Positions 5,633-63,328 of a stretch of 64,000 bases of DNA are shown in pieces (position 1 is the first letter of the stretch; each line of letters starts with the position of its first letter). The stretch is from assembly GCA_963736755.1 (NCBI GenBank), contig CAVTQE010000023.1, positions 9,822 through 73,821 on the forward strand, given 5' to 3'. This DNA comes from an uncultured delta proteobacterium (lineage in GTDB: Bacteria; Desulfobacterota; WTBG01; JAGOGO01). The notes beneath the pieces were generated by a model, which was given only the letters and a program-made list of their open reading frames with translations, searched no databases and was not told where the DNA came from. Both the position numbers and the translations under genes were made by a program.

Positions 5633-5676
5633 ATTAAAAGCCTCCTTGTTTTCTTTTTTTACGTTAATGAGCCTTT

Positions 5677-7695
5677 TTAATGTTGTTTGTCTTTGTCTCG
5701 GTGCATGAGTTGGTAAGACTTAAAGGTAACCTTCATGCCCATGCGATATCCATCATGAACCGCTCCATACCCACGCCTTACCTGGATAGCATCACCGATC
5801 ATGTAAACGTCAGCCTTCCCGTATTTACCGAGTTTAACCTCCTTATTAGGCACAAGGTCAGCTATGATCACGGTGTCGGCAGCGAGTTTATTTTCTTTTT
5901 TCTCAGCATCGATAACCACTACGCCGTCATCCACAATCTCTTTGACCTTGCTCAGGTTAATCTGTGCGACGTTTCCGGCTTTCAGTTTCATCAAATATCT
6001 CCAGATGTAGGAGGGGTTAACATCCGGTCCGAATTTCTTCTGAGGACCAACAATGGCGACCTTAACGTCTTTGTATTTGTCGACAATATAGAGAGCCGTG
6101 GAAATTGCCGCGCCTTTACCGCCAAGGATGAGCACGTTTTTGCCTGGTTTTACCTTTCCGGAAAGAACATCGAGACAGCTTGAAACGATCTTCTTATCAC
6201 TGCCCGGATAAGATGCCATATCAGTTGTAGCTCCCGTGGCGATAATAACTATATCCGCTGTTTCTTTCTTGAGGTCTTCACTGGTCAGAGCCTTATTCAG
6301 AACAATCTTGGCGCCAAACTTATCGCACTGGGCTTTGAGATGTTTTACCAATCTCATCAATTCCTCATCACCCCATGGACCATGGGAGGCGATTTCCATC
6401 TCACCGCCTACGCAATCTCGCTTTTCATAAATCGTTACATCATTGCCTTTTTGCGCTGCGATTGCACCGGCCTGTAACCCGGCAACACCGGCACCGACGA
6501 TGATAATTTTCTTTTTCTCTTTGTCTTTCGCGAATCCGTAGTAGCCCCACTCCGGCTCATTTTCATGACCAAGGGAGGGCCGAACCGTACACATTAATTC
6601 GGTGTCCCGGAAAAGTCTGGCCAAGCAAACATTACAAGCGATACAAGTAATAATGTCTTGCTGACGGTCTTCCATAACCTTTTTAGGAAGAGCAGGGTCG
6701 GCAATCATCGGACGGCACATTTCCCAAATGTCCAGCCTTCCTTCAGCAATCGCTTTCTCTGGAATCTCAGGGACGAATAACCGGTACGCCATGCTCACCG
6801 GAACCTTAATGTTCTTTTTCAGTCTCTCAGCAATGTAGAGCCAATGGCCCATCGGAACGTCCCGGGTGATAACGGGAACCATAGATTCCTGCCACCCAGC
6901 GGTAACACTGATATAATCCGCACCCGCTGCTACGGCAAGCTTAATAGACTCAAGGCTTTCTTCCGGGCTGTTGCCGCCACGGTCATCCAGAAACTCTTCA
7001 CCGCAAAGGCGGATCCCAACGGGAACATCACCGCAAGCCTTTTTGCAGGCCTGAATGATATCGGTCATAAATTTGGAGCGGCCTTTGATATCTCCGCCGT
7101 ATTGATCTGTCCGTTTGTTGGTGTAAGAAGAAATGAAGTTAGAGAGCAGATAACCGACAATACCAGAGATTTCAAGAATCTCATACCCAGCTTCCACTGC
7201 CCGCCGGGCTCCATCAGCGTTGTTTTGGATGGTCCTTTCAATATCTTCCAGGGTCATTTCCTTGGGTGGTCGGAAAATGGGAAGCTTCTGGGGAACAACC
7301 GAAGGACCAATAGTATAGGGCAGTTCAATCCCTCCAACGCGTCCGCAATCCATAAGCTGCAAGCAAGAAGCTGAATCATACTTTTTAATCGCTTTTGCCA
7401 ATCGGGCAAGTCCGGGTATAAACTTATCATCCCAGATCGCCATCATACCTACATATCCTTTTCCAGCACCAATTTTATCAGTGTAAGCACCCTGCGTAGT
7501 AACGATACCCGCGCCTCCGCGAGCTTGGGCTTCCATATACCCAACCTCTTTGTCAGAAACATACCCATCACGGTAGTTAAAGTTAGTTTCGGTGGAGGCA
7601 TACTTTACTCTGTTTTTGACTTCCAGCTTTCCAATCTTGATCGGGCTGAATATGTGAGGATATTTTTTTATTCCCGGTAGAATTTCACCAGCCAT
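5677..7695 (-). CDS. Old-yellow-enzyme-type FMN/FeS/FAD oxidoreductase (2-enoate reductase / 2,4-dienoyl-CoA reductase family)
   Basis: N-terminal OYE TIM-barrel, central CIACNVC Cys motif, GAGVAGLQAG Rossmann motif. Start placed at MAGEIL (ATG 7695) because GGAGGA lies 5 nt upstream; the ORF track start 7713 lacks an RBS. Confidence 0.85.
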   Translation of the reverse strand: MAGEILPGIKKYPHIFSPIKIGKLEVKNRVKYASTETNFNYRDGYVSDKEVGYMEAQARGGAGIVTTQGAYTDKIGAGKGYVGMMAIWDDKFIPGLARLAKAIKKYDSASCLQLMDCGRVGGIELPYTIGPSVVPQKLPIFRPPKEMTLEDIERTIQNNADGARRAVEAGYEILEISGIVGYLLSNFISSYTNKRTDQYGGDIKGRSKFMTDIIQACKKACGDVPVGIRLCGEEFLDDRGGNSPEESLESIKLAVAAGADYISVTAGWQESMVPVITRDVPMGHWLYIAERLKKNIKVPVSMAYRLFVPEIPEKAIAEGRLDIWEMCRPMIADPALPKKVMEDRQQDIITCIACNVCLARLFRDTELMCTVRPSLGHENEPEWGYYGFAKDKEKKKIIIVGAGVAGLQAGAIAAQKGNDVTIYEKRDCVGGEMEIASHGPWGDEELMRLVKHLKAQCDKFGAKIVLNKALTSEDLKKETADIVIIATGATTDMASYPGSDKKIVSSCLDVLSGKVKPGKNVLILGGKGAAISTALYIVDKYKDVKVAIVGPQKKFGPDVNPSYIWRYLMKLKAGNVAQINLSKVKEIVDDGVVVIDAEKKENKLAADTVIIADLVPNKEVKLGKYGKADVYMIGDAIQVRRGYGAVHDGYRMGMKVTFKSYQLMHRDKDKQH

Positions 7696-16552: not shown

Positions 16553-17875
16553 AAAGTATCATCGCCATTGTGGGCAGGCCCAATGTCGGTAAATCTACCC
16601 TCTTCAACCGCTTAGCCCGGAAGCCAAAGGCAATTATTGACGATCTTCCCGGGGTAACCCGAGACCGCAACTATGCTGAAGTTGAATGGGGTGACTCTTC
16701 TTTCACTCTTATCGATACCGGAGGATTCGAGCTTGAACCCCATCAAGCATTATCCCGCTTGGTCCAGGAACAAGCTCGCTTAGCCATTGAAGAAGCAGAT
16801 ATCATCCTTTTTCTCACTGATGGCCGTGAAGGGCTTACTCCGGTTGACAAAGATTTGATCAGTCTTCTCCGGACGATCCCTAAACCTATCTTCCACTGTA
16901 TCAATAAAATTGATGGCCCCCGCCATGAAGAAAACCTTTACGACTTTTTCCAGATGGGGATTGACCAGTGGTTCACCATCGCGGCTAAGCACAACCGCGG
17001 GGTAAGCGAATTAATGGATGAGGTAATCAAGGCCCTTCCCAAGAAAAAACTCTCATCGGAAGAGGAAAGTGCCATTAAGATCGCGGTGTTGGGTCGTCCC
17101 AACGTTGGAAAATCATCATTAGTCAATCGAATCCTCGGCTATAACCGCGTTATTGTCAGTGAAACTCCCTGGAACGACCCGGGATGCGATTGATACGCCT
17201 TTTAGGTTTAAAGGCAAGCGATACATTATCATTGACACTGCCGGGATCCGGAAAAAAAGCCGGATTGGCTACCAACTCGAAAAGTATTGCGTGGTAGAAG
17301 CATTACGAGCAATTGAACGGTGTGATGTGAGTTTGATCCTGATTGATGCCCAGGAAGGAATCACCGAACAGGATGTAAAAATTGCCGGTCAGGTCTATCA
17401 AAAAGGAAAGGGCTGCGTGGTGGTAGTCAATAAGTGGGACGTGATCCAAAAGGATAACTCCACCATCGGGACCTATGTGGAGAAAATAAAAGACAAAATG
17501 AAATTTCTTGACTTTGTCCCGCTTATCTTTGTCTCTGCCCTCTCCGGCCAGAGGGTGTCAAAAATATTGGATAAGGTTTACGACTGCTTTACGCAATGCC
17601 AAAAAAGGATCGAAACCGCTGAACTAAACCGTTTCCTGGCTCAGGTGATCAATGATCATCCTCCGTCCCACCATTGCGGAAAACAAATCAAATTTAAATA
17701 TCTCGCTCAGGTGGACATAAAGCCGCCCACCTTTGTTTTTTTCACTAATTTTCCCAAAGCCATTCACTTTTCTTACCAACGGTATCTTGCCAATCAGTTG
17801 CGGGAGGCCTACGGTTTTGAAGGCGCTCCGCTTCGGCTCTTTTTCCGGGGAAGGGAAAGAAAAACCACCCCATAA
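16549..17875 (+). CDS. der: Ribosome-associated GTPase Der/EngA (two G domains), one frame break at 17167-17169
   Basis: GRPNVGKST twice, DTGG, C-terminal KH-like domain. Removing one C of CCC 17167-17169 restores SETPGTTRDAIDT. Confidence 0.9.
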
Positions 17876-41774: not shown

Positions 41775-42976
41775 GTGAACAAACACAGGAGGATGGTTAT
41801 GAAGATTGGAATAGGGTTTGTTTTCGTGGTTACATTTCTGTTTCTGGGTAGTGCTTTTGCTGCTGATCCTGTACCACCGCCGGTAGAGGAAAGCTGCGGG
41901 CCGAAATTCACCTTTGAGGCTGGGCCAATCGTGATGACTCGTCACCAGGACAACCAAGCTATTTTTTCAAGCCCGGGAAACCCAAGGAGCGGTGACCTTC
42001 TGAAAACTTCCATGATTGATGACGATTGGAGGGTCGGCGGTCAGGCACGGTTGACGGTTTCTTTCCCGTGTTTCTATCTGGATTTTGGCGGATTTTGGCT
42101 ACCATCCGGCTCCAACACAGAAAATAAACCTTTGCCGTTAGAAAGCAATACCATTGAAACGAGCCCCCCTACATTGTTTGATGGTCGAACTCAGATTCCA
42201 TGGTTGATGATGATTGGAGAGTCGGCGGTCAGGCACGTCTGACTGTTGCCTTCCCGTGTTTTTATCTTGATTTTGGCGGATTCTGGATACCATCCGGCTC
42301 CGACACGGTACATAAATTTGAGCCGGATGGCGAAAATACAATCGAAACGAGCCCTCCAACATTCTTTGGCGGCCCAACAGTCGGAGATGCTACGTTTAAA
42401 TATTCTTCGTCGATCTATAATTTGGATGGGAATATTGGGCACAGTTTTGCTCCCTGGTTATCGGCCTATGCCGGAGTCCGGTATTTGAGGTTAAAAGAAA
42501 AACTTGACATGTTTTCCCCCTTCGGCGGCTCTGATTATGAGGACGATAATTGGAAAGCAAAGAACTCAATGGTCGGCCCGCAGATCGGCGCACGGGCAGA
42601 CATTCTGAAGCTGATCGGCGTTTGCGAATCAAGTCCCTGGTCTTTAGATACCAACGTTGCTTTTGTGATCCTGCACAATCATGCGAAATCTGAATTTTCG
42701 CGAACTCCTGGCACTGCTACCTCTGGATCGGCATCATCAAACTTCTGGACCCCGGGCGTGGCTGCGGAGGCTGATCTGGGGTTTCGTTTGATGCGCAATC
42801 TTAAACTGGCGATCGGCTATCAGATGCTCTATCTCGACCGGGTTGCGCTCGCTACAAATCAGGTGGCAGGGACCGGGAACTTCAACGTGGTTGGCGGGGA
42901 AATCAATATGTCAGTAGAAAAAGACAGCGTTCTTTATCACGGCGGACTCGTAAGGTTTGTTATAGACCTGCCGTAG
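41775..42976 (+). CDS. Outer-membrane beta-barrel protein (BBP7-like impression) broken by an internal 188-bp tandem duplication
   Basis: Signal peptide KIGIGFVFVVTFLFLGSAFA. DDDWRVGGQARLTV(S/A)FPCFYLDFGGFW(L/I)PSGS occurs twice. C-terminal beta-strand pattern ends ...YHGGLVRFVIDLP. Confidence 0.6.
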
Positions 42977-50210: not shown

Positions 50211-50264
50211 ATGGAAAATGCTAATAGGATGTTACGTGGTCTCATTAAGTCATTGAAGAACTAA
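50211..50264 (+). pseudogene. 3' remnant of a four-helix-bundle (23S rRNA IVS protein family) gene
   Basis: MENANRMLRGLIKSLKN* compared with the end of 61842-62201 (...MQDVDRMLSGLIKSLKK*). The nucleotide similarity continues into the following ttcacttttcac words. Confidence 0.7.
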
Positions 50265-50392
50265 CTTTTCACTTTTCACGATTCACTTTTTACGCTTCAC
50301 GCTTTACGGTTTTTTTTAACGTTTAACTTTTCACTTTTACGTTTTACATTTCACGTTTTACTTTTTACTATTTCAAACAGAAGGACTTTGCC
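50265..50392. repeat. Word block (H words, single polarity)
   Basis: cttttcacttttcacgattcactttttacgcttcacgctttacgg...cgtttaacttttcacttttacgttttacatttcacgttttac. Confidence 0.7.
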
Positions 50393-51359
50393 ATGAGGTT
50401 AAAAAGAATCATTATCACCCGGTCGTGCTTCCTTCTGCTTTTTTTGGCTCTGCTTCTCCTTCAGGCCTGTTCCTATCCAACCACACCCCGGATCAAAAAA
50501 ACAGCACCAGCACCTGAAGGGCCATCAGCCAGCACTCCTCCGGAACAAAGCATTGGGAAAATTTTTCAAAAAAACGCTCCGGTACTTGTTTCCCAGCCGG
50601 AACGCAAAGAAAAAGAATATGAAATCGGTCCGGAAGATAGGCTGGAGATTAGGGTATGGGACCAGGAAGATCTCACGCGGGAAGTGTACGTGTCCCGGGA
50701 AGGAGTTTTTTCCTATCCTCTTATCGGCACGGTTCAGGCAGGTGGCCTCAGCGTGGAACAGCTCGAAAAAGAAATTGCTGACCGGCTCTCCAGAAAATAC
50801 ATCGTCAATCCCCAGGTTACGGTTACGGTAAAAGAGTTTAAGAGCAAAAAAGTCCTGGTGCTCGGCGAAGTCGGAGTCCCCGGAACTATATCCGTTAACC
50901 GGGAAGACCACCCTTTTGGAAATACTCACGAAAACCGGTGGCCCAACCACAAATGCCGGGATTGAGATAACCGTCATGCGGCCCCGGAAGACCCCCAACG
51001 CTCCTGGCTCTCAGGAAAGGTCAGCGAACAATGAGGTGATAAAAATAAATTTAAAAAGGCTTTTAGAAGGCGATACCTCCCAAAATATTTATCTCGAGCC
51101 GAACGATACGGTGTATTTTTCTAAAACTGGATTTTATTACGTGTACGGCGAGGTAAAATCTCCCGGGAGATACAACCTGGAAATGGGCACCACTGTACTG
51201 AAGGCGATCACCACTGCCGGCGGAGTAACGGAAAAGGCAGCAGTCAACCGGACCAAGGTAGTGCGGGAAAAAGCAGGACAAAAATCAGAGATGCGCGTCA
51301 AACTGACTGACCCGGTTGAACCAGAAGATATTATCGTGGTTCCGGAAAGCTTTTTCTGA
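50393..51359 (+). CDS. Polysaccharide export outer-membrane lipoprotein (Wza family), one frame break near 50905
   Basis: Lipobox LLLQAC, YEIGPEDRLEIRVW...PLIGTVQAGGLSVEQLEKEIADRL..., then YPLTGKTTLLEILTKTGG... (SLBB) in the second frame. Confidence 0.85.
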
Positions 51360-51401: not shown

Positions 51402-51812
51402 GTGGAGGGGATGAAACAACCGATAGTAGTAAAAAGCTTTGAGGACTTATACGTTTATAGCCTATCACGGGCTTTCAGCAAGAAGGTTAGTGAGTTAATA
51501 AAATTGTTGCCACAACATGAAGAATACAACCTGAAAAGCCAGATGCGACGGGCAAAACTTTCAGTTACAAATAATATAGCAGAGGGATATGGAAGATATC
51601 ATTATCAAGAAAATATCCAGTTTTGTAGACAGGCAAGAGGGTCTATTTATGAATTGATAGATGATTTTAATGAATGCGCTGATGAAGGATACCTTGATCA
51701 AAAAATGCTAACCGATTACAAAGAAGCCGGTTATTATTTGTTGAAAGTTTTAAATAAATATATCAGTTCCCTGAAAAAACTAAAGCAAGCAACTAAAGAA
51801 TTAACTCATTGA
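51402..51812 (+). CDS. Four-helix-bundle protein, 23S rRNA intervening-sequence protein / Avd-like family (copy 1)
   Basis: ...QMRRAKLSVTNNIAEGYGRYHYQENIQFCRQARGSIYEL... Probably starts at ATG 51411. Flanked by an inverted repeat (51386-51403 / 51823-51848). Confidence 0.85.
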   Translation: MEGMKQPIVVKSFEDLYVYSLSRAFSKKVSELIKLLPQHEEYNLKSQMRRAKLSVTNNIAEGYGRYHYQENIQFCRQARGSIYELIDDFNECADEGYLDQKMLTDYKEAGYYLLKVLNKYISSLKKLKQATKELTH

Positions 51813-51856: not shown

Positions 51857-54070
51857 GTGCATAGGCAGGATGTCATGGCTGAGAATTTTTTTGGAGAAGA
51901 AATCAATTTAAGAGATTACCTGAGAGTTCTTTTTAAAAGACGGTGGTTGATCGCCGCCGTTCTGCTCATCGTGGTCGTAAGCGTAACCATAGAGACATTC
52001 CGGAAGACTCCGATCTATCGGGCAACCGCTCAGGTTATGATTGAAAGCGAAAATCCCAAGGTGGTTGATATTCAAGAAGTTCTTCAAAGCAACCAGGAGT
52101 ATTCCGACTATTATCAAAGCCAATACGAGATTTTAAAAAGCAAAGCTCTGGCCTTGAAGGTAATCAACTATTTAAACTTAAATGAAAATCCTGTGGTTGG
52201 CGGTTCTAAAAAGGGCTTCAGTCCGGGCGCGGTTTTCCATGGAATGATAGGATGGCTTAAAAACCTTACCTCTTCGGCTGAGGCAAAACCCGATCCCCAG
52301 CTGGAGGAAGACCAACGAAATAACTCCCTGATAGCGGCTTACCTGGGCAGCTTGAGGGTGGAGCCGATAAAAAACAGCCGCCTGGTCAATATAAGTGTCG
52401 AAGGTATAGACCCCAAAATGGTAGCCAGGATCGCCAATACCCATGCTCAGCTTTACATCGAGAGCAACATCGAAAGAAAATTTGCTGCCGCTCAGGCAGC
52501 CGTGAGCTGGCTTAACCAGAGAATAAAAGAAGAAGGAAAGAAACTTCAGCAAAGCGAAGAATCTCTGCAGACCTACCGGGAACAAGAAGGTTTGATTGAT
52601 ATTGATTTTCAAGAACGACAGGGCATCATCATGCAGAGCCTTAATGACTTAAATACCGCGTTAACCGAAGCCCAGACTGAAAAAATAACAAAGCAGCAGC
52701 TCTCCTCAGCCTCGGGTCTGGATGAATCACATCCCGCGGTCATGCAGAACTCTTTAATCCAGGCACTCAAGGCAAACTATATCGCCCTTTCCGGAGAGTA
52801 CTCCAAGCTTTCCCAGAAATACGGCCCGGAACATCCCAACATGGTGAGACTCTCATCGGAAATGCAGGCGATACAAGGAAAAATTGCCCAGGAAATCAGG
52901 AAACTCGCCCAAAGCATGCACACCGATTCCCAATTAGCGTCAGACAAAGAAAAAGCCATTCTTGCCGCCATGGAAGCAAAGAAAAAAGAAGCCCTTGCCC
53001 TCAATCAGAAACAGATTAAATACGATGCATTAAAACGTGAAGTCAGCATCACCCGCTCCTTGTTTGAATCTTTGCTCAAGCGGGCCAAGGAAGCTTCGGT
53101 TACCGAAGGGTTAAACGTAACCAATATTGTTGTCGTTGATCCTGCCCGCTTGCCCGATACGCCTTTTAAACCCCAAAAAGCTCGCGATATTCTTTTCGCT
53201 CTGATCATCGGCCTTACCCTTGGCATCGGATTAGCCTTTTTGCTTGAATACCTGGATAACACCATCAAAATTCCGGAAGAGGTGGAACGCTATCTAAAAA
53301 TACCGCTCTTAGGTCTCGTGGGAAGTTTTCCAACTAACTCGACTGACCTCAAAAAGAATGAACTTATTTCTCATACGAACCCAAAGTCGACTATCTCGGA
53401 GGCCTATCGAACTATCCGGACAAACCTCCTTTTTTCTTCTCCGGATAATAAAAAACAAGTGCTTCTGGTAACCTCGATGCTCCCTTTCGAAGGCAAGACT
53501 GTCCTGTGCTCAAATCTTGCCATCACCTTTGCCAAAATGGGGAAAAAGGTACTTTTAGTGGATGCGGATATGAGGAAACCAAAAATTTATAAAGTGTTTA
53601 ATCTTGATCGAGTCAAAGGATTATCCGCGTTCCTCGTGGGCGAGGAATCTTCGATCGTAATTACGGACATTCCCGGCCTCAAAATTTTAACCTCCGGCAC
53701 CCTCCCGCCCAATCCCTCTGAACTTTTAAGTTCAAAAAAAATGCAAGATTTCATTGAGCGGGCCAGGGAACAATACGACCTCATTCTCTTTGACTCTCCG
53801 CCCATCCTTTCGGTCACTGACGCAGTCATTCTATCCACTCTTGCCGATGGGGTGGTAGTGACAATCAAGGCTTCCGATACCCCGCGACCAGCCATTAAGC
53901 AGGGACTCCAGCAGCTTTCCGAGGTGGGCGGCAAAGTGCTGGGTTGCGTTTTAAATGCTGTGGATTTTGAAAAGGAAAGCTACTACCATTCCCCCTACCG
54001 GTATCATCATCATTATTATTATCACGCGTATGGAGAAGAGGAAAAAAAAGATTTAAGATTTAAGGGTTAA
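51857..54070 (+). CDS. Polysaccharide co-polymerase / tyrosine autokinase (Wzc/GumC-type)
   Basis: N-terminal Wzz domain, coiled coil, second TM, Walker A SMLPFEGKT, DADMRKP, C-terminal Tyr/His cluster YYHSPYRYHHHYYYHAY. Confidence 0.9.
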   Translation: MHRQDVMAENFFGEEINLRDYLRVLFKRRWLIAAVLLIVVVSVTIETFRKTPIYRATAQVMIESENPKVVDIQEVLQSNQEYSDYYQSQYEILKSKALALKVINYLNLNENPVVGGSKKGFSPGAVFHGMIGWLKNLTSSAEAKPDPQLEEDQRNNSLIAAYLGSLRVEPIKNSRLVNISVEGIDPKMVARIANTHAQLYIESNIERKFAAAQAAVSWLNQRIKEEGKKLQQSEESLQTYREQEGLIDIDFQERQGIIMQSLNDLNTALTEAQTEKITKQQLSSASGLDESHPAVMQNSLIQALKANYIALSGEYSKLSQKYGPEHPNMVRLSSEMQAIQGKIAQEIRKLAQSMHTDSQLASDKEKAILAAMEAKKKEALALNQKQIKYDALKREVSITRSLFESLLKRAKEASVTEGLNVTNIVVVDPARLPDTPFKPQKARDILFALIIGLTLGIGLAFLLEYLDNTIKIPEEVERYLKIPLLGLVGSFPTNSTDLKKNELISHTNPKSTISEAYRTIRTNLLFSSPDNKKQVLLVTSMLPFEGKTVLCSNLAITFAKMGKKVLLVDADMRKPKIYKVFNLDRVKGLSAFLVGEESSIVITDIPGLKILTSGTLPPNPSELLSSKKMQDFIERAREQYDLILFDSPPILSVTDAVILSTLADGVVVTIKASDTPRPAIKQGLQQLSEVGGKVLGCVLNAVDFEKESYYHSPYRYHHHYYYHAYGEEEKKDLRFKG

Positions 54071-54261
54071 GTTTTAAGGGTCTAAGGAACTTAAAGCTTC
54101 AGAACTTCGATACTTATGGCTGCCTTGCAACATATTGAGAATTATTAGCTTTTAACGGTTTACGGTCTTTTGATCTTAACCCTTTGACTCCTTTATCCTT
54201 TACGGTTCGACTTTGATCCTTAACCTTATCCTTAAACCTTAACCCTTAACTCTTTATTATC
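54071..54261. repeat. Word-hairpin block (T words and complements)
   Basis: gttttaagggtctaaggaacttaaagc...gatcttaaccctttgactcc...gatccttaaccttatccttaaaccttaacccttaac. Confidence 0.7.
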
Positions 54262-55229
54262 ATGATTGACCTTCACGCGCATATCCTTCCTGACCTTGAT
54301 GATGGGGCAAAAGACTGGCAGGAGACCCTTGATATGTGCGCCATTGCCTTGAATGACGGCATCCACACCATCGTGGCCACCCCCCATGTGAAACGAGGAA
54401 TGTACACCCCGGCCAAAAAACTTATCTTATCCAAGGTCGCCGAACTCAACCACCGCCTGCTCCATGCTCCGCTTACGCCTCCCGTCGTGTAAAACGTGAA
54501 ACGTAGAGATGTAACTCCTCACGCTTCACGCCCCGCGCCTCCCCGTCAAACGTAAAAAGTAAAACGTTAGAAGTAACTCCTCACGTTTCACAGTTCACGT
54601 TTCACGGATTAACAATTGTGCCCGGCGCTGACAACGCTTTTGAGCCGGATATCCTCGACCAATTAGAACAGGGAACTGCTTTGTATCTTGCCCACCCCAC
54701 CAACGCTATAAACGCACCAAACGCAATTAACGCGAATAACCCAACTACCCGTGAAATGCGAAGCATATTTCACCGGGACCCCACAAACCCTATAAACCCA
54801 ACCCTCCGCTACGTGCTCCTGGAGTTGTCCGATTATTTTCTTTTTCCTCAGGTGAAAGACCTCATCCGGAAACTCCGCGAAAAAAACATCGTGCCTGTCC
54901 TCAGCCACCCGGAAAGAATTGCCATGATCCAGAAAAATCACCAGCTCCTTCAGGCCTTCATTCAAGCCGGCGCTCTTTCCCAGGTAACCGCGATGAGCAT
55001 CACCGGTGAATTCGGAAAAGAAATTAAAAAACTTACCCGAACCCTGGTAAAGAAAAATCTGGCGCATGTTATCGCCTCTGATTCCCACTCAAAAGACCGC
55101 AGGCCGCCGATACTTTCACAAGCAGTCTCGGAGGTCGCTGACCTTATCGGCAGCGATAAAGCGGAACTGATGGTCCAGGGGATACCCCAGGCGATCATTG
55201 AAGGTAAGGAAATAAGATTAGATGATTAG
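54262..55229 (+). CDS. PHP-family protein-tyrosine phosphatase (CpsB/YwqE type), split by a 137-nt word-hairpin insertion and carrying a second in-frame insertion
   Basis: MIDLHAHILPDLDDG...TPH... (54262-54468), then GLTIVPGADN...SHPER...ASDSHS (54606-55229) in another frame. Confidence 0.8.
54469..54605 (+). repeat. Word-hairpin insertion inside the phosphatase CDS (two tandem units)
   Basis: Stops in all three frames (taa 54490, tga 54497, tag 54504). Contains the core gtcaaacgtaaaaagtaaaacgttagaagtaactcctcacg. Confidence 0.8.
54691..54808 (+). repeat. In-frame low-complexity insertion in the phosphatase CDS
   Basis: ccaccaacgctataaacgcaccaaacgcaattaacgcgaataaccc ... hairpin gtgaaat/atttcac ... 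ccacaaaccctataaacccaaccctcc. Confidence 0.65.
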
Positions 55230-55297
55230 AGGATTGGAAGGTTGGAAGGTTAGGGAATTAGATAATTAGATGGTTAGAAGATTGGATGGTTAGAGGG
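55217..55297. repeat. Word block (G words) overlapping the phosphatase stop
   Basis: gattagatgattagaggattggaaggttggaaggttagggaattagataattagatggttagaagattggatggttagaggg. Confidence 0.7.
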
Positions 55298-55299
55298 AA

Positions 55300-55665
55300 A
55301 TGGGGAAAAATTTTTATAGAGACCTGTTAGTCTGGCAAAAGAGTGTATCCTTGATAAAAGAGGTTTACGCTGAAGCTGACAAATTGCCAAAATCAGAGGA
55401 ATATAATCTGAAGCAGCAACTTAAAAGAGCAGTTGTTTCTGTTTCGTTAAATATTGCTGAAGGGAAAAATCGAAGATCCCCAAAAGATTTTATTAATTTC
55501 CTTAATATCTCAAATGGTTCTTTAGCGGAGACAGAAGCGATTTTATTGATATGCGGGGAACTTGGGTTTTTGCGTATTCCGGAAGATTTACTTTCCCATA
55601 TAGAAGAACTGGCAAAAATGATCAACAGCCTGATTGCCAACATAAGGGGGAAATTAGAAGGTTAG
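55300..55665 (+). CDS. Four-helix-bundle protein, 23S rRNA IVS protein / Avd-like family (copy 2)
   Basis: ...QLKRAVVSVSLNIAEGKNRRSPKDFINFLNISNGSLAETEA... Confidence 0.85.
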   Translation: MGKNFYRDLLVWQKSVSLIKEVYAEADKLPKSEEYNLKQQLKRAVVSVSLNIAEGKNRRSPKDFINFLNISNGSLAETEAILLICGELGFLRIPEDLLSHIEELAKMINSLIANIRGKLEG

Positions 55666-55904
55666 AGGATTAGAGGATTGGAGGGTTAGAAGATTGGAAA
55701 GTTGGATGATTAGAGGGTTAGGAGGAGACTAACTTGCAAACATCCCAACATCTAAACTTCTAATCTTCTATCGCGTCCAAACATCCAAACCTCTAAACCT
55801 CCAACCCTCTGAAGTTGCTAATCCGTCTAAAACTCTAAACATCGGGTCTTTGCCCTTAACCTTAACACTAAAACTTAACACTTAATTACTTAAATCTTAA
55901 CCCA
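55651..55904. repeat. Word-hairpin block: G words, then complementary words, then T words
   Basis: 55651-55728 ttagaaggttagaggattagaggattggagggttagaag... versus 55742-55830 acatcccaacatctaaacttctaatcttc...cctctaaacctccaaccctc; then cttaaccttaacactaaaacttaac. Confidence 0.7.
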
Positions 55905-58119
55905 ATGAACACGATTATTGAGTATGGCCTTATTTTCCTGATTATTTTTACCCCGCTCGCCTTTGGCTCAGTCCATGTCTGGGCATATACCATCGTGGAA
56001 GTTGTTGTCCTTCTTCTTCTTTTGATTTGGCTGTTAAAACATTTTACTTTTCACGATTCACGTTTCACGTCTTCACTTTTCACGTTTCACTTTTCACGCA
56101 TTCACCCGTACTTTCACATTTCACTCTTTACGTTTTACGATCCCCTTTTCCCTCTTCCTGGGCCTGATCCTTTTCCAGATGGTTCCAATACCTGCGACAG
56201 TAATAAAACACCTGTCCCCCAATACCTATGATCTCTACCAGCAAACCATCGGAAATCCGTTAAACGTAAAAAGTAAAACGTTAAATGTTACTACGTCCCT
56301 CGCTGATAGCTCATTGCCGATAGCAAAACCCATGAGCCACGAGCTATCACATTTCACGTCCTATGATCCATTTACACAAACGCCACCAAAACCGAATTTC
56401 TCAAATTCTTTGCCTACTTCTCCGTATTTTTTCTCATCATCACGACCATGACCACCACGCGTCAGATACGACGAATAGTACTGACGATTATTTTCACCGG
56501 AACCGGCGTTGCATTTTTAGCGCTCTGCCAGATACTCAGCAAGTCAGATAAAATCTACGGGTTCTGGCAGTCTCAGCAGGCTCTGCACAAGATCGGAATC
56601 TACGGCGGTCAGATCGGAAAGATCGGAAGCTACGGCGGTCCTTTTATCAATCCCAATCACCTGGCCGGCTACCTGGAGATGGTTATCCCTCTCGCGCTCG
56701 GGTTTTTGCTCAGCCGCGAGGTACCGGGCATCATTCGTTCGGCAAAAAACTGGAAACGACGGCTTTCCCTGCTTGAATCCTGGCTTGCGAAAAATACCCT
56801 CCTTATCTTCATTATCGTCCTGATGGCATCAGCGGTCTTTATTTCTGCCTCGCGGGGCGGGATTATTTCTTTTATTTTTTCTTTAGGGTTATTTTCCCTG
56901 CTGCTCGGAGTGCGAAGATACCACAAGGGAAAAAGAAAGATGGTGCTGCTTATCACCGGATTAATATTCATTTTTCTTCTGTGGATGGGCATTGGCCCGG
57001 TAGTCACCGAACTCGCTACCCTCGCCGATCCCAAGACCTCCGGCTTAGTGGTACGGCTCCAGGTATCGAAAGATACCCTTGCCCTGGCACGGGACTTTCC
57101 CCTCTTCGGGGTCGGGCTGGGTAATTTTCAAACTCTCTATCCTAAATATCAAACATTTATCTACCCCTTCTTCTGGGACCACGCTCATAATGATTACGTG
57201 GAAATGCTCGCCGATACCGGCTGGATGGGGCTGCTCTTATTTTTTGGTGGAATCTGGTTGGTGCTTTTCGCCATCATCAAAACGTGGAAGCAAAGGCGAG
57301 ACCCATTTCTGGCGGACATAACCCTCGGTGGTTTTATCGGCGCAGTGTCTCTTCTGTGCCATTGCCTGGTAGATTTTAACCTCCACATTCCTGCCAATGC
57401 CTTTCTCCTTTTTGTGATCCTGGGACTGATGGTCGCTGCGGTTAATATCAAAAAAAAGGGAGAAGAAGATTTTTCTTTCCTTCCAATCCGCGCCGTTTCT
57501 TTCTCGCCCAAAACAAGAACTGCGCTGATCATGGCAAAAGCCCTCATAATAGTGTTCCTGCTTACCCTGGTGATGAAAGATTATCTGGCGTATCATTTTT
57601 TTAGTAACTACCAATCCCTCAAGCCGAGCGAGTTCTCACTCGCCGCCTCCCTCGTTAAACGTAAAAAGTAAAACGTTAGAAGTAACTCCTCACAGTTCAC
57701 GTTTCACGTTTCACGTTTTACTCACCCGGGCCATCTTTTTTGATTCGGGTAATGCACCGTATCATTATGAGCTGGGTAATTATTATGCCCGCAAGATGAG
57801 CGAATCCTGGAAACGGGGAACCTCGAACATACCAGGAGAACAATGGGTCTTTGACGCTGAAAAAAATGCCCGATTTTTTGGACTTAAGGCTTTACAGGCG
57901 TATGCTGATGCGGTAAACTTGTCTCCGGCCAATGCCTGGTATCATTTTTATCTAGGATGGACCCTGAGCGAATTAAAGCGGTTTTCGGATTTCTCCCAAC
58001 ATCCGATCCCGCTTGCGGAACCTTTTGACGCGGAAACAGAATTTTCCCGGGCCCTCATGCTCGATCCAAACAATGAAAATATTAAAAAATATATAACGGC
58101 CGTAAAACCTGGAGGTTAA
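55905..58119 (+). CDS. O-antigen-ligase-like (Wzy_C) membrane protein with C-terminal TPR-like tail, interrupted three times by word-hairpin insertions
   Basis: ORFs 55905-56231, 56179-56451, 56448-57671 and 57796-58119 are colinear. Core ...FWDHAHNDYVEMLADTGWMG... Confidence 0.75.
56038..56140 (+). repeat. H-word insertion 1 inside the ligase CDS
   Basis: attttacttttcacgattcacgtttcacgtcttcacttttcacgtttcacttttcacgc...; no stop in frames 0 and 1. Host frame changes from 0 to 1. Confidence 0.75.
56254..56366 (+). repeat. Word insertion 2 inside the ligase CDS (core element plus S-complement words)
   Basis: gttaaacgtaaaaagtaaaacgttaaatgttac...gctgatagctcattgccgatagc...catgagccacgagctatcac. Host frame changes from 1 to 0. 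Confidence 0.75.
57654..57725 (+). repeat. Word-hairpin insertion 3 inside the ligase CDS
   Basis: gttaaacgtaaaaagtaaaacgttagaagtaactcctcacagttcacgtttcacgtttcacg; about 90% identical to 54545-54607. Confidence 0.8.
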
Positions 58120-58127
58120 AGAAAAAA

Positions 58128-58240
58128 GTTTTAAGGGTTAAGATTTAAGGGTTAAAGAACTTAAAACTTAATTACTTAAATCTTGTGTTTTTCACTTTTT
58201 ACGTTTCACGGTTAACCGTTTACGGCGTTTCACTTGGAAA
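58128..58240. repeat. Word-hairpin block (T then H words)
   Basis: gttttaagggttaagatttaagggttaaagaacttaaaacttaattacttaaatctt...ttcactttttacgtttcacgg. Confidence 0.7.
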
Positions 58241-59380: not shown

Positions 59381-59504
59381 AGCACGAGGCGAAAGGAGTA
59401 AAGAGTTAGGTGTTAAATACCGTAAATCGTAAAGGGTAAACAGTAAAAGGTTAAAGGTTAAAAGTAAACAGTAAAAACTAAAGACTGATACCAAAAAGTG
59501 AAAG
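59381..59504. repeat. Word block (cgtaaa/gtaaac words) 5' of four-helix copy 3
   Basis: ccgtaaatcgtaaagggtaaacagtaaaaggttaaaggttaaaagtaaacagtaaaaac...aaaaagtgaaag. Its complement words follow the gene at 59862-59935. Confidence 0.7.
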
Positions 59505-60612: not shown

Positions 60613-61023
60613 ATGAAACTTACTCGTTTTGAAGACCTCGACTGCTGGCAGGAAGCCAGAAAATTAGTGAAAAGTGTCTATGGAGTAACGAGGGGCGACT
60701 CATTCAAAAAAGACCTTCGGCTCTGCGGACAGATTCAGGCAGCAAGTTCTTCGGTGATGGCAAATATAAGTGAGGGGTTTGTAAGAAGGTCGAACAAAGA
60801 ATTTACTCAATTCTTGTTTATTGCCATGTCATCTTCTGCTGAAGTTCAGAGCCACCTTTATAGCGCCTTAGACCAGGGGTACATCAATCAAGCGCAGTTT
60901 GATGACATTTACAACCAAGCCACGAAAACAGCGAAGATTATATCTGGGCTCATTACTTATTTGAGAAATAACGAGAAACAATATAAACTCAACAAACCAG
61001 AAAAACAGAAGAAACCAAATTAA
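60613..61023 (+). CDS. Four-helix-bundle protein, 23S rRNA IVS protein / Avd-like family (copy 4)
   Basis: ...QIQAASSSVMANISEGFVRRSNKEFTQFLFIAMSSSAEVQS... Confidence 0.85.
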   Translation: MKLTRFEDLDCWQEARKLVKSVYGVTRGDSFKKDLRLCGQIQAASSSVMANISEGFVRRSNKEFTQFLFIAMSSSAEVQSHLYSALDQGYINQAQFDDIYNQATKTAKIISGLITYLRNNEKQYKLNKPEKQKKPN

Positions 61024-61111
61024 CCAAAGAGACTAAAGAAACCAGAGAAACCAGATAAACCAGATAAACCAGATAAACCAGAGAAACCAAATAAACCAGA
61101 GAAACCAAACA
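61022..61111 (+). repeat. 9-nt tandem repeat (aaccagaga/aaccagata), about 10 units, starting at the stop codon of copy 4
   Basis: Eight clean units at 61040-61111 plus two degenerate units. In frame with the ORF they would read KPEKPDKPDKPDKPEKPNKPEKPNK. Confidence 0.85.
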
Positions 61112-61233
61112 AACGTTTCACGTTTTACTTTAACCCTTTATCCTTTTAATTATTCACTCATTCACTTATTTACTTATTTACTTATTAACTTATTAACTCA
61201 TTAACTCATTTACTTTTTAATGTAGTTAAATCT
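61112..61233. repeat. Word block (H, T-complement, L words)
   Basis: acgtttcacgttttactttaaccctttatcc...ttcactcattcacttatttacttatttacttattaacttattaactcattaactcatttac. Confidence 0.7.
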
Positions 61234-61734: not shown

Positions 61735-61841
61735 CGGCGCCATGCGCCGGATATCGTGAATCGTAAGGCGTGAAAAGTGAGGAGCAACATTTAACGTTTT
61801 ACATTTTACGTTTTACGTTTTACGTCTAACGGAGTTTAGGG
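61735..61841. repeat. Word-hairpin block containing an inverted copy of the core element
   Basis: cgtgaatcgtaaggcgtgaaaagtgaggagcaacatttaacgttttacattttacgttttacgttttacg. Confidence 0.7.
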
Positions 61842-62201
61842 ATGTTAAACAAACCTCATAAAAAACTGGATGTATGGAAAAAGGCAATCGATTTGGTGCA
61901 GCAGATATATGATCTGACAAAAACTTTCCCGAAAAATGAAGATTACAGCCTAACCAGCCAAATGAGAAGAGCTGCGATATCAGTACCCTCTAACATAGCG
62001 GAAGGAGCAGCGCGGCAAACCAAAAAAGAATTCATGCAATTTCTTCATATGGCACAAGGTTCGCTGAGCGAATTGGATACACAGATAGAAATAGCAAAAA
62101 GATTAGGATATTTCAGTGAGGATCAAACCAAAAAAATATTCGAGATTATGCAAGATGTTGATAGGATGTTAAGTGGTCTCATTAAGTCATTAAAGAAATA
62201 A
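61842..62201 (+). CDS. Four-helix-bundle protein, 23S rRNA IVS protein / Avd-like family (copy 5)
   Basis: ...QMRRAAISVPSNIAEGAARQTKKEFMQFLHMAQGSLSELDTQ... Confidence 0.85.
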   Translation: MLNKPHKKLDVWKKAIDLVQQIYDLTKTFPKNEDYSLTSQMRRAAISVPSNIAEGAARQTKKEFMQFLHMAQGSLSELDTQIEIAKRLGYFSEDQTKKIFEIMQDVDRMLSGLIKSLKK

Positions 62202-62300
62202 CTTTTCACTTTTCACTTTTCACGTTTTACGTTTTACGGTTTTTAACGCTTTTCACATTTTACTAATTTACTTTTCACTTTTTAACTTATTAACCCTTTT
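62202..62300. repeat. Word block (H and L words)
   Basis: cttttcacttttcacttttcacgttttacgttttacgg...cttttcacattttactaatttacttttcactttttaacttattaaccc. Confidence 0.7.
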
Positions 62301-63189: not shown

Positions 63190-63328
63190 CCCCATGCTTT
63201 TTAACGTTTACGTTTCACGTTTTACATTTAACGTTTCACGTTTCACTTTTCACGTTTCACTTTTCACGGTCTTTTCACCTTTCACTTTTCACGGTCTTTT
63301 CACCTTTCACTTTTTTCGGAGCTAACCC
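63190..63328. repeat. Word block (H words, single polarity)
   Basis: aacgtttacgtttcacgttttacatttaacgtttcacgtttcacttttcacgtttcacttttcacggtcttttcacctttcacttttcacgg... Confidence 0.7.

What the first reader, a model, noticed from the sequence alone, without database searches (positions are those of the whole stretch)
54262..55229. Tyrosine-phosphatase gene split by a 137-nt hairpin insertion that closes all three frames; precise removal would restore one ORF
The PHP-type phosphatase reads normally to ...ELNHRLLHA (54468). It resumes at GLTIVPGADN (54606) in a different frame, matching the ...LPGxE... strand that follows the corresponding helix in B. subtilis YwqE. The intervening 137 nt (not a multiple of 3) are two tandem word-hairpin units with stops in every frame (taa 54490, tga 54497, tag 54504). 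A single sequencing indel therefore cannot explain the split. A second insertion (54691-54808) stays in frame and adds about 37 residues (PTNAINAPNAINANNPTTREMRSIFHRDPTNPINPT) between the conserved LYL and RYVLLE. The gene may be a recent pseudogene, a two-piece enzyme reinitiating at GTG 54618, or the insert may be removed or bypassed at the RNA or ribosome level. The last option is speculative; precedents are T4 gene 60 bypassing and mitochondrial byp elements.
Basis: partly seen in the sequence, partly recalled or inferred. Interest (0 to 1): 0.8.

Follow-up and report, generated by a model that had tools for sequence, protein, structure and literature searches.

The report
Frame-broken repeat loop in phosphatase gene
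The gene is interrupted as described, but the interrupting DNA is a repeat module that close relatives translate in frame as a floppy surface loop. The break here is most likely a sequence error or a very recent knockout, not a sign of RNA editing or ribosome hopping.

Summary
A CpsB/YwqE-type PHP tyrosine phosphatase gene reads to 54468 and resumes at 54606 in another frame. The 137 nt between carry stops in all three frames (54490, 54497, 54504).

The interpretation mostly does not hold. The 137 nt are two copies of a heptamer-word module. The second copy (U2) is open and in frame with the C-terminal part, reading SNVKSKTLEVTPH. All 16 short-read relatives with both flanks keep one frame across this site. 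Their inserts add 0-213 nt to a 54-nt base state, every total a multiple of 3, with no stops. That includes a 94-97% identical relative with an intact 343-aa gene, so relatives translate the insert.

Here U2 lacks one base present in five other copies, and U1 has an in-frame TAA. Two edits give a 322-aa ortholog-like ORF.

The contig also carries plain frameshifts in der, purL, an ABC-F ATPase, Wza and other genes. The neighbouring Wzy gene is broken at three repeat inserts.

My reading is a hypervariable translated loop, like Rickettsia palindromic elements. The break is a consensus artefact (~0.55) or a recent null allele (~0.3). Bypass or excision is about 0.03.

The parts
54262..54468 (+). 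N-terminal conserved part (residues 1-69) of a CpsB/CapC (YwqE-type) PHP tyrosine phosphatase
   Evidence: PF19567 positions 1-66, E = 6.8e-18. It is 97% DNA-identical to L002. dN/dS against L002 is 0.11.
54469..54534 (+). Unit 1: a diverged copy of the heptamer-word module (gtaaaac gtgaaac gtagaga + gtaactcctcac + gcttcac). It lies in the N frame but carries TAA 54490, with TGA 54497 and TAG 54504 closing the other two frames.
   Evidence: Relative to the canonical 48-nt core it differs by -7 and +1 nt, so it stays in frame. It reads PPVV*NVKRRDVTPHASRP against the canonical PPLSNVKSKTLEVTPHVSRP.
54535..54605 (+). Unit 2: a canonical copy of the module. It is open and in frame with the C-terminal part (ASPSNVKSKTLEVTPHVSQFTFH). 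It is one base shorter than every other copy within 54541-54545 (CCTCCC-CGTC), and that missing base is the frameshift.
   Evidence: Alignment A5. The same peptide is present in frame in P0003, P0007, P0012, P0017 and P0022 among others. It forms a strong hairpin.
54606..55229 (+). C-terminal conserved part of the phosphatase. The frame is open from 54507 and the first start codon is GTG 54618.
   Evidence: PF19567 positions 103-233, E = 5e-26. dN/dS against L002 is 0.24. The public annotation calls it a separate 203-aa protein, P0006.
54691..54808 (+). Second in-frame variable insert. It consists of 9-nt NAI repeats plus a small palindromic module (54748-54776, ..TREMRSIFHRD..).
   Evidence: It is nearly identical in P0001-P0003, shorter or different in other orthologs, and different in the closest C-terminal relative L094. 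The AlphaFold2 model gives mostly low confidence here (10-residue block means 43-55 over residues 161-200; segments below 50 at 165-179 and 196-199).
57628..57720 (+). A second exact copy of the module, inside the neighbouring Wzy/O-antigen-ligase-like gene (site C). It is again in frame with the downstream part and out of frame with the upstream part.
   Evidence: L002 has a different module at this site and an intact 779-aa ORF.
55905..58119 (+). Wzy_C-type gene broken into three ORFs at three repeat-insert sites: A 56041-56140, B 56250-56370 and C 57620-57726. The conserved body is intact.
   Evidence: DNA alignment to L002 and frame analysis.
17160..17176 (+). Control: a plain 1-nt frameshift in the essential GTPase gene der/engA. 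It is pinned to ACTCCCTGGAACG by the conserved ETPGTTRD motif.
50875..50895 (+). Control: a plain frameshift in the Wza-type polysaccharide export gene, which splits Poly_export from SLBB.

Best explanation
The 137 nt are two tandem copies of a short repeat module. The module has GTAAAAC-type heptamers, a conserved middle (GTTAGAAGTAACTCCTCAC) and complementary TTCACG-type heptamers.

The module sits in a loop of the PHP phosphatase between helix 2 and the LTILPGADN strand. In this bacterial lineage, an uncultivated Thermodesulfobacteriota related to ORM2a, that loop is a hot spot for repeat gain, loss and replacement. The inserts are ordinarily kept in frame and translated as a disordered surface loop. 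This is the same way Rickettsia palindromic elements sit in frame inside genes.

In this contig the loop is frame-broken by two small defects. Unit 2 lacks one base that all other copies have. Unit 1 carries a stop where the canonical module has TCA.

I judge these defects most likely to be consensus or assembly errors. The region is hard to assemble because it is repetitive and varies between strains, and the contig as a whole carries many indels. No excision, bypass or reinitiation is involved. The real gene most likely encodes one protein of about 320 aa.

Shown: the anatomy, in-frame translation in relatives, and the other frameshifts in the contig. Inferred: that the defects here are artefacts.
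For: 1. In all 16 short-read loci with both flanks, the N, C and C2 parts share one frame. The ELN-to-PGADN stretch measures 54, 57, 60, 105, 111, 117, 132, 201, 225 or 267 nt. All are multiples of 3 and none has a stop.
2. L002 is 94-97% identical in the flanks. It has an intact 343-aa phosphatase and an intact 779-aa Wzy gene.
3. The module is read in the same frame (NVKSKTLEVTPH) in every intragenic copy in relatives, in two different genes.
4. Window U2 is 1 nt shorter than five other copies, exactly at the frame junction. Two edits give a 322-aa ortholog-like ORF.
5. The contig has plain frameshifts elsewhere: der, purS-purL (2), an ABC-F ATPase, GlcNAc 2-epimerase (2), Poly_export, a molybdopterin oxidoreductase, and probably a second Wzy_C gene.
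6. The only other broken ortholog is L001, a contig with many split genes.
7. The conserved parts show purifying selection (dN/dS 0.11 and 0.24), and the kinase shows no window-specific excess of amino-acid changes (15 against 24).
8. The AlphaFold2 model of intact P0002 has a core pLDDT above 90, with insert 1 below 50 for most residues and insert 2 low and mostly unstructured.
Against: - The unit 1 closure needs at least two edits, and an in-frame stop is not a typical indel-type consensus error.
- Wzy site B also has an in-frame TGA inside an extra 21 nt that looks like real sequence.
- Homopolymers of 7-8 bases agree between the window and L002, so the contig is not uniformly noisy.
- Frame-breaking defects are far denser in the inserts (at least 6 in about 460 nt) than elsewhere (about 0.2 per kb). 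That needs an extra assumption, such as strain heterogeneity or repeat-specific error.
- I could not retrieve the source record or its reads.
Confidence: 0.55

Rival explanations
1. The defects are real. This strain carries a very recent null allele of the phosphatase, and also of Wzy and Wza. It arose through the high turnover of repeat modules in these loops. It is either a young pseudogene or an OFF state of a variable exopolysaccharide locus, in the manner of a contingency locus.
For: Unit 1 is a distinct, diverged copy rather than a garbled canonical one, and it is closed in all frames. Wzy site B carries extra heptamers with an in-frame TGA. Three or four genes of one polysaccharide cluster are hit. 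Insert content differs between strains that are 94-97% identical, which shows a high mutation rate at these sites. Some alleles carry perfect heptamer runs that could slip, as in L096.
Against: Essential and housekeeping genes outside the cluster are also frameshifted (der, purL, ABC-F), which points to the sequence rather than the biology. None of the 16 short-read relatives carries an OFF allele. The gene bodies carry no defects and show no relaxed constraint, so any inactivation would have to be extremely recent yet involve at least 6 separate events. The heptamers here are imperfect, which makes them poor substrates for slippage.
Confidence: 0.3
2. A two-piece enzyme. The 76-aa N fragment and a C fragment starting at GTG 54618 are made separately and assemble into an active PHP phosphatase.
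For: Both pieces are long open frames with intact catalytic motifs. The public annotation calls them as two genes, P0131 and P0006.
Against: GTG 54618 lies inside the conserved LTI(V/L)PGADN strand, so the C piece would start without it. I see no clear Shine-Dalgarno sequence upstream. All relatives are single chains. I know of no split PHP phosphatase (own knowledge).
Confidence: 0.04
3. The insert is skipped. Either it is excised from the mRNA, or the ribosome hops from GTG 54487 (followed by TAA) to GTG 54618, as in T4 gene 60 or the mitochondrial byp elements.
For: The codon before the stop (GTG) recurs in the C frame at 54618, and the region folds into hairpins. The defects are concentrated in inserts while the gene bodies remain under selection.
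Against: Relatives up to 97% identical keep every insert open and in frame, which shows the inserts are translated. Unit 2 itself is in frame with the C part. The gap would be 128 nt against about 50 nt in gene 60. With 38 candidate landing codons a match is expected about half the time by chance. The product would replace the LTIV strand with PPVV. Rfam finds no intron or other RNA family. The Wzy breaks show no matching take-off and landing codons.
Confidence: 0.03

Closest known systems
Rickettsia palindromic elements (RPE), short palindromic repeats inserted in frame into protein-coding genes
   Same: A dispersed short repeat with hairpin potential is found inside unrelated genes. It is always read in one frame as a conserved peptide and sits in surface regions compatible with the fold. 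See PMC10969869 for the RPE description, and for the behaviour here.
   Different: I found no sequence relationship. The module here is built from heptamer words that also form intergenic tandem arrays. Its right arm varies in copy number, and the long hairpin is not conserved in all copies. Its content turns over between strains that are 94-97% identical. The host is a free-living-type Thermodesulfobacteriota, not an obligate intracellular bacterium.
Intergenic heptamer direct-repeat arrays (TAACTGA repeats of marine Beggiatoaceae; STRR heptamers of cyanobacteria)
   Same: Tandem 7-nt words are abundant at gene boundaries throughout the window. Compare the title and abstract of PMC4679880 as listed; the STRR comparison rests on my own knowledge.
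   Different: The words are different (TTTCACG, GTAAAAC, CCTTAAC, GGTTAGA). Here they also enter coding regions in frame.
T4 gene 60 translational bypass and mitochondrial byp elements
   Same: A stop codon directly follows a codon that recurs downstream, and there is local secondary structure.
   Different: The gap is 128 nt rather than about 50 nt. The supposed gap is translated in relatives. No nascent-peptide signal is recognisable. See the membership test.
CpsB/YwqE PHP-family tyrosine phosphatases paired with BY-kinases
   Same: The gene is a member of this family and lies next to a Wzc-like BY-kinase, a Wza gene and a Wzy gene.
   Different: It carries two lineage-specific, low-complexity loop insertions that are absent from YwqE, CpsB and more distant orthologs.

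Membership tests
CpsB/CapC (YwqE-type) PHP tyrosine phosphatase, PF19567 | Profile match above Pfam's gathering score | tested here: met
   The N part scores 65.4 bits and the C part 92 bits, against a cut-off of 27. YwqE and CpsB structures are hit at E = 1e-28 to 1e-32.
CpsB/CapC (YwqE-type) PHP tyrosine phosphatase, PF19567 | Conserved metal-binding His/Asp/Glu residues (HxH at the N terminus, TPH, E of LLELS, HPER, SDxH) | tested here: met
   All are present in the window. H5, H7, H42 are invariant or nearly invariant in both alignments, and H170, D228 and H230 are invariant in both; E142 is invariant in A1 and nearly invariant in A4.
CpsB/CapC (YwqE-type) PHP tyrosine phosphatase, PF19567 | One uninterrupted coding sequence | tested here: not met
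   The window gene is split at 54490-54606. The gene is intact in 16 relatives.
CpsB/CapC (YwqE-type) PHP tyrosine phosphatase, PF19567 | Genomic pairing with a BY-kinase or polysaccharide locus | tested here: met
   A protein with Wzz, GNVR and AAA_31 domains lies directly upstream (51857-54070). Wza and Wzy genes flank the pair.
RPE-like in-frame intragenic palindromic repeat | The same short repeat occurs in several unrelated genes and in intergenic DNA | tested here: met
   Copies lie in the phosphatase, in Wzy sites A to C, and in the intergenic stretch 61777-61802.
RPE-like in-frame intragenic palindromic repeat | Inserted in frame and read in one constant frame | tested here: met
   This holds for all copies in short-read relatives. 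It does not hold in the window itself, where two copies are out of frame with the upstream part.
RPE-like in-frame intragenic palindromic repeat | Conserved palindromic (hairpin) structure | tested here: inconclusive
   Window U2 folds strongly. The consensus fold of 10 copies keeps only a 5-bp stem with no compensatory pairs, and L090-type copies lack the right arm.
RPE-like in-frame intragenic palindromic repeat | Sequence homology to the Rickettsia RPE families | not tested
   I made no comparison with RPE sequences. Rfam gives no hit. The claim is therefore 'works like', not 'is a member'.
MITE | Terminal inverted repeats and target-site duplication | tested here: inconclusive
   The arms are heptamer arrays of variable number, and I could not define discrete TIR or TSD. 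TTCACG words flank the core on both sides in L083.
T4 gene 60-type translational bypass | Identical take-off and landing codons, with a stop right after take-off | tested here: met
   GTG 54487 followed by TAA, and GTG 54618 in the C frame. With 38 candidate codons this is expected by chance about half the time.
T4 gene 60-type translational bypass | A short coding gap (about 50 nt) that is not translated | tested here: not met
   The gap would be 128 nt. Homologous sequence is translated in frame in relatives.
T4 gene 60-type translational bypass | Nascent-peptide signal and take-off stem-loop acting on the ribosome | not testable with these tools
   This needs translation assays.
Group I/II or other self-splicing intron | Match to an intron RNA family or a conserved catalytic core | tested here: not met
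   Rfam at gathering thresholds finds only one tRNA in 64 kb. At E up to 1 in 54200-54900 it finds only a chance miRNA-hairpin hit.
Simple-sequence contingency (phase-variation) locus | ON and OFF alleles in the population that differ by repeat-unit number | tested here: not met
   16 of 16 short-read alleles are ON. The differences are module replacements, not unit counts. The sample is small and the alleles are not independent.

The most novel reading that the evidence does not exclude
The frame-closing inserts are real, yet the genes still work. On this reading the strain skips the heptamer-word hairpin modules in the phosphatase and in three places in Wzy. It does so either by excising them from the RNA or by long-range ribosomal bypass. 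This would explain why the defects pile up in the inserts while the gene bodies stay under purifying selection.
Probability: 0.03. Interest if true: 0.9.

Novelty: new member of a known kind. Interest (0 to 1): 0.22.

Why it matters
As a recoding or RNA-excision candidate this finding does not hold up, so it should not be pursued as one without read-level confirmation.

What remains is of modest interest. An uncultivated Thermodesulfobacteriota lineage carries heptamer-word repeat modules that enter envelope-polysaccharide genes in frame and are translated as disordered loops. These modules are swapped between strains that are otherwise 94-97% identical.

This is a free-living-type counterpart to the 'selfish DNA in coding genes' known from Rickettsia. 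It is also a natural catalogue of insertion-tolerant loops in PHP phosphatases and Wzy polymerases.

There is a practical lesson too. Such inserts are places where assemblies are most likely to produce false split genes.

Tried and rejected
- **Retrieving the source contig.** I tried exact-protein look-up six times and it failed each time. The sequencing technology and reads therefore remain unknown.
- **Exact search for the module core.** A search of 185,579 species-representative genomes found nothing. The lineage is known only from metagenomes. The nearest genome is ORM2a, CP113000.1, at 72% amino-acid identity.
- **Chimeric assembly of two alleles.** The insert looks L090-like on the left and L083-like on the right. 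The flanks, however, are equidistant from both allele groups, so I found no support.
- **Long-standing pseudogene.** Rejected. There are no defects in about 5 kb of gene bodies, dN/dS is 0.11-0.24, and the kinase shows no window-specific excess of changes.
- **Conserved RNA or DNA hairpin under selection.** I found no covariation, and the right arm is missing in some copies.
- **Known RNA family or intron.** None was found.
- **Gene-60-like GTG...GTG coincidence.** Noted and judged to be chance.
- **Link between plain frameshifts and CCNGG-type motifs.** The sites include der CCCTGG, Wza CCCCGG, purL CCAGG and ABC-F CCCGGG, which would fit methylation-linked long-read errors. I saw the pattern but did not test it statistically.

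Full report
**1. What is in the sequence**

An ORF starts at ATG 54262 and reads MIDLHAHILPDLDDG...ELNHRLLHAPLTPPVV, stopping at TAA 54490. A second frame is open from 54507 and runs to 55229. Its first start codon is GTG 54618.

Pfam places the first piece on positions 1-66 of CpsB_CapC (PF19567) and the second on positions 103-233. The YwqE and CpsB crystal-structure sequences align on both sides of the gap, with GLTIVPGADN falling on LHVLPGQE of YwqE.

The 137 nt at 54469-54605 carry one stop in each frame within 15 nt: TAA 54490, TGA 54497 and TAG 54504. This arises because three consecutive heptamers (gTAAaac gTGAaac gTAGaga) each present a stop, and a 7-nt period steps through all three frames.

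The stretch folds better than shuffled sequence (z = -3.3). A second insert at about 54691-54808 is in frame.

**2. What the 137 nt are**

They are two copies of one module. The canonical form is a 48-nt core, CCTCCCCTGTCAAACGTAAAAAGTAAAACGTTAGAAGTAACTCCTCAC, followed by a variable number of TTCACG-type heptamers.

Unit 2 (54535-54605) is a canonical copy. In the C-terminal frame it reads ASPSNVKSKTLEVTPHVSQFTFH and runs straight into GLTIVPGADN. Unit 2 is therefore already part of the open C-terminal frame and is not an intervening sequence.

Unit 1 (54469-54534) is a diverged copy, differing by -7 and +1 nt from the core. It lies in the N-terminal frame and reads PPVV*NVKRRDVTPHASRP.

An exact second copy of the module sits in the neighbouring Wzy-type gene at 57628-57720. 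A diverged copy lies in intergenic DNA at 61777-61802.

**3. Relatives translate these inserts**

A protein search found many close orthologs at 63-88% identity, all from metagenomes. They are 255-357 aa long, and the length differences fall at exactly the two insert sites. Many carry ..PPLSNVKSKTLEVTPHVS(Q/R)FTFHGL.. at site 1.

At the DNA level I obtained 18 related loci that cover at least part of site 1.
- In all 16 short-read loci with both flanks, the three conserved blocks share one frame.
- The stretch between ..ELN and PGADN measures 54, 57, 60, 105, 111, 117, 132, 201, 225 or 267 nt, where 54 nt is the insert-free base state.
- Every length is a multiple of 3, and none contains a stop.

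L002 is 94-97% identical to the window in the flanks. It has an intact 343-aa phosphatase and an intact 779-aa Wzy gene in the same gene order.

In every intragenic copy in relatives, in both genes, the module is read in the same frame. The other two frames of the module contain stops. This pattern means selection keeps the inserts translatable, which argues directly against excision or bypass in this lineage.

An AlphaFold2 model of the intact relative P0002 supports this. The PHP core has pLDDT above 90. Insert 1 (residues 69-135) is below 50 for most residues and has no secondary structure. Insert 2 (about 160-200) has low confidence (10-residue block means 43-55) and is unstructured apart from one short helix. 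Both are loops between well-packed elements.

**4. The sites are hypervariable**

The window and L002 differ structurally at all four heptamer-module insert sites, one in the phosphatase and three in Wzy. The flanking sequence is nearly identical.

L094 shares the window's unique C terminus (..EGKEIRLDD). It nevertheless has a different module at the end of insert 1 and a different insert 2.

A second module type (GCTGATAGCTCA...CATGAGCCACGAGC, read as LADSSLPIAK..HEPRAMSHEP) alternates with the first. L096 has expanded CACGAAT heptamers to 201 nt, still in frame.

**5. What is wrong in the window**

Compared with five other copies, unit 2 lacks one base in CCTCCC-CGTC at 54541-54545. This is the frameshift between the N and C frames. 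Unit 1 has TAA where the canonical module has TCA.

Changing A54491 to C and adding one C after 54544 yields a 322-aa uninterrupted ORF with the architecture of the orthologs.

The minimum is one substitution plus one indel, or three indels.

**6. The contig has many other broken frames**

Pfam colinearity shows plain frameshifts, away from any repeat insert, in these genes:
- the Wza-type exporter (about 50880);
- GlcNAc 2-epimerase (two);
- purS-purL (two);
- an ABC-F ATPase;
- a molybdopterin oxidoreductase (at least two);
- probably a second Wzy_C gene (only its C-terminal piece matches the profile);
- the essential GTPase gene der.

In der, the universal ETPGTTRD motif pins an extra base to ACTCCCTGGAACG at 17165-17176.

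The neighbouring Wzy gene is broken at all three of its repeat inserts and nowhere in its 1.9-kb conserved body. L001 is the only other ortholog broken at site 1. Its kinase gene is split into four pieces, which is typical of a noisy long-read assembly.

**7. Weighing error against a real defect**

For error:
- Frameshifts in der and purL are hard to reconcile with a viable cell.
- Broken inserts are seen only in the two contigs that also have scattered frameshifts.
- Strain-variable repeats are where a consensus is most likely to fail.

For a real defect:
- An in-frame stop in unit 1, and another (TGA) in an extra 21 nt at Wzy site B, are not typical indel errors.
- Long homopolymers agree with L002.
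- Defects are roughly 60-fold denser in the inserts than elsewhere.

A long-dead pseudogene is excluded. The gene bodies have no defects and dN/dS is 0.11-0.24. The kinase shows 15 window-derived against 24 L002-derived amino-acid changes when polarised with five outgroups.

I put about 0.55 on artefact, 0.30 on a very recent real null allele, 0.04 on a two-piece enzyme and 0.03 on bypass or excision.

**8. Recoding considered explicitly**

GTG 54487 is followed by TAA, and GTG recurs in the C frame at 54618. This is superficially like the take-off and landing pair of T4 gene 60.

Several points count against it:
- The gap would be 128 nt.
- With 38 candidate codons a match is expected by chance about half the time.
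- The product would replace the conserved LTIV strand with PPVV.
- Homologous sequence is translated in relatives.
- The Wzy breaks show no such codon pairs.

Rfam finds no intron or other RNA family.

**9. Comparison with known systems**

The gene is a member of the CpsB/YwqE phosphatase family and sits next to its BY-kinase.

The module behaves like Rickettsia palindromic elements, which insert in frame into unrelated genes and are read as a conserved peptide (PMC10969869). I did not test homology to those elements, and the long hairpin is not conserved across copies.

The intergenic heptamer arrays throughout the window recall the TAACTGA arrays of Beggiatoaceae (title and abstract of PMC4679880) and cyanobacterial STRR repeats (own knowledge).

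**10. Verdict**

The split is real in the sequence as given, but it does not call for an unusual decoding mechanism. It is a frame-broken copy of a normally translated, hypervariable repeat loop, in a contig whose frames are unreliable.

Interest as flagged is low. The in-frame module family is a modest finding, a new member of a known kind.

Noticed in passing
window 55905-58119: The Wzy/O-antigen-ligase-like gene is split into three ORFs at three repeat-insert sites. The indels at sites A and B sum to -69 nt relative to L002, so the frame is restored after site B. The 94-97% identical relative L002 has one 779-aa ORF.
   Followed up: yes
window 17165-17176, 50875-50895, ~21450, ~25100, ~25465, ~28900, ~30300: Plain frameshifts occur in der, Wza, ABC-F, GlcNAc 2-epimerase (2) and purS-purL (2). 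Several of the plausible indel sites lie in or next to CCNGG-type motifs (CCCTGG, CCCCGG, CCAGG, CCCGGG). This would fit methylation-linked long-read errors, but I did not test it statistically.
   Followed up: partly
window 50264-50375, 54048-54254, 55216-55294, 55653-55901, 58126-58184, 59429-59482, 61128-61220, 61787-61825, 62199-62294, 63200-63314: Almost every gene boundary in the last 14 kb carries tandem arrays of 7-8-nt words (TTTCACG, GTAAAAA, CCTTAAC, GATTAGAT). Arrays upstream and downstream of a gene are often complementary word families.
   Followed up: partly
window 54748-54776; P0023: A small palindromic module (CCCGTGAAAT..ATTTCACCGG, read as (S/T)REM(R/P)(S/G)IFHRD) sits inside insert 2. 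In ortholog P0023 it lies at a different position relative to the NAINA repeats, which suggests a second mobile or rearranging in-frame module.
   Followed up: partly
window 56293-56345; L002:2600-2680 and 5650-5770: A second module type (GCTGATAGCTCATTGCCGATAGC ... CATGAGCCACGAGC, read as LADSSLPIAK..HEPRAMSHEP) alternates with the NVKSKTLEVTPH module at the same insert sites in the phosphatase and Wzy genes.
   Followed up: partly
window 51402-51812 and 55300-55665; L002:3445-3819: Genes for 23S rRNA intervening-sequence-type four-helix-bundle proteins (PF05635) are interspersed between the polysaccharide genes. They are conserved in position in L002.
   Followed up: no
window 42008-42368: A 188-nt tandem duplication (1.9 copies, 81% match) spans the junction of ORFs 41775-42242 and 42200-42976. 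The latter has a weak beta-barrel-porin BBP7 hit.
   Followed up: no
window 60973-61114: A 9/18-nt tandem array (AAACCAGAG, about 12.7 copies) starts inside the end of ORF 60613-61023 and continues past its stop. This may be another repeat-associated frame problem.
   Followed up: no
window 51875-54067 vs L002:1-2193: The BY-kinase gene has a high dN/dS against L002 (0.68), compared with 0.11-0.24 for the phosphatase. The changes are spread over both lineages (15 window-derived, 24 L002-derived).
   Followed up: partly
L096:320-522: In one ortholog, insert 1 is a 201-nt expansion of CACGAAT/CACGATT heptamers. It is kept in frame with a 21-nt (7-aa) periodicity, read as SRITNHE.
   Followed up: no
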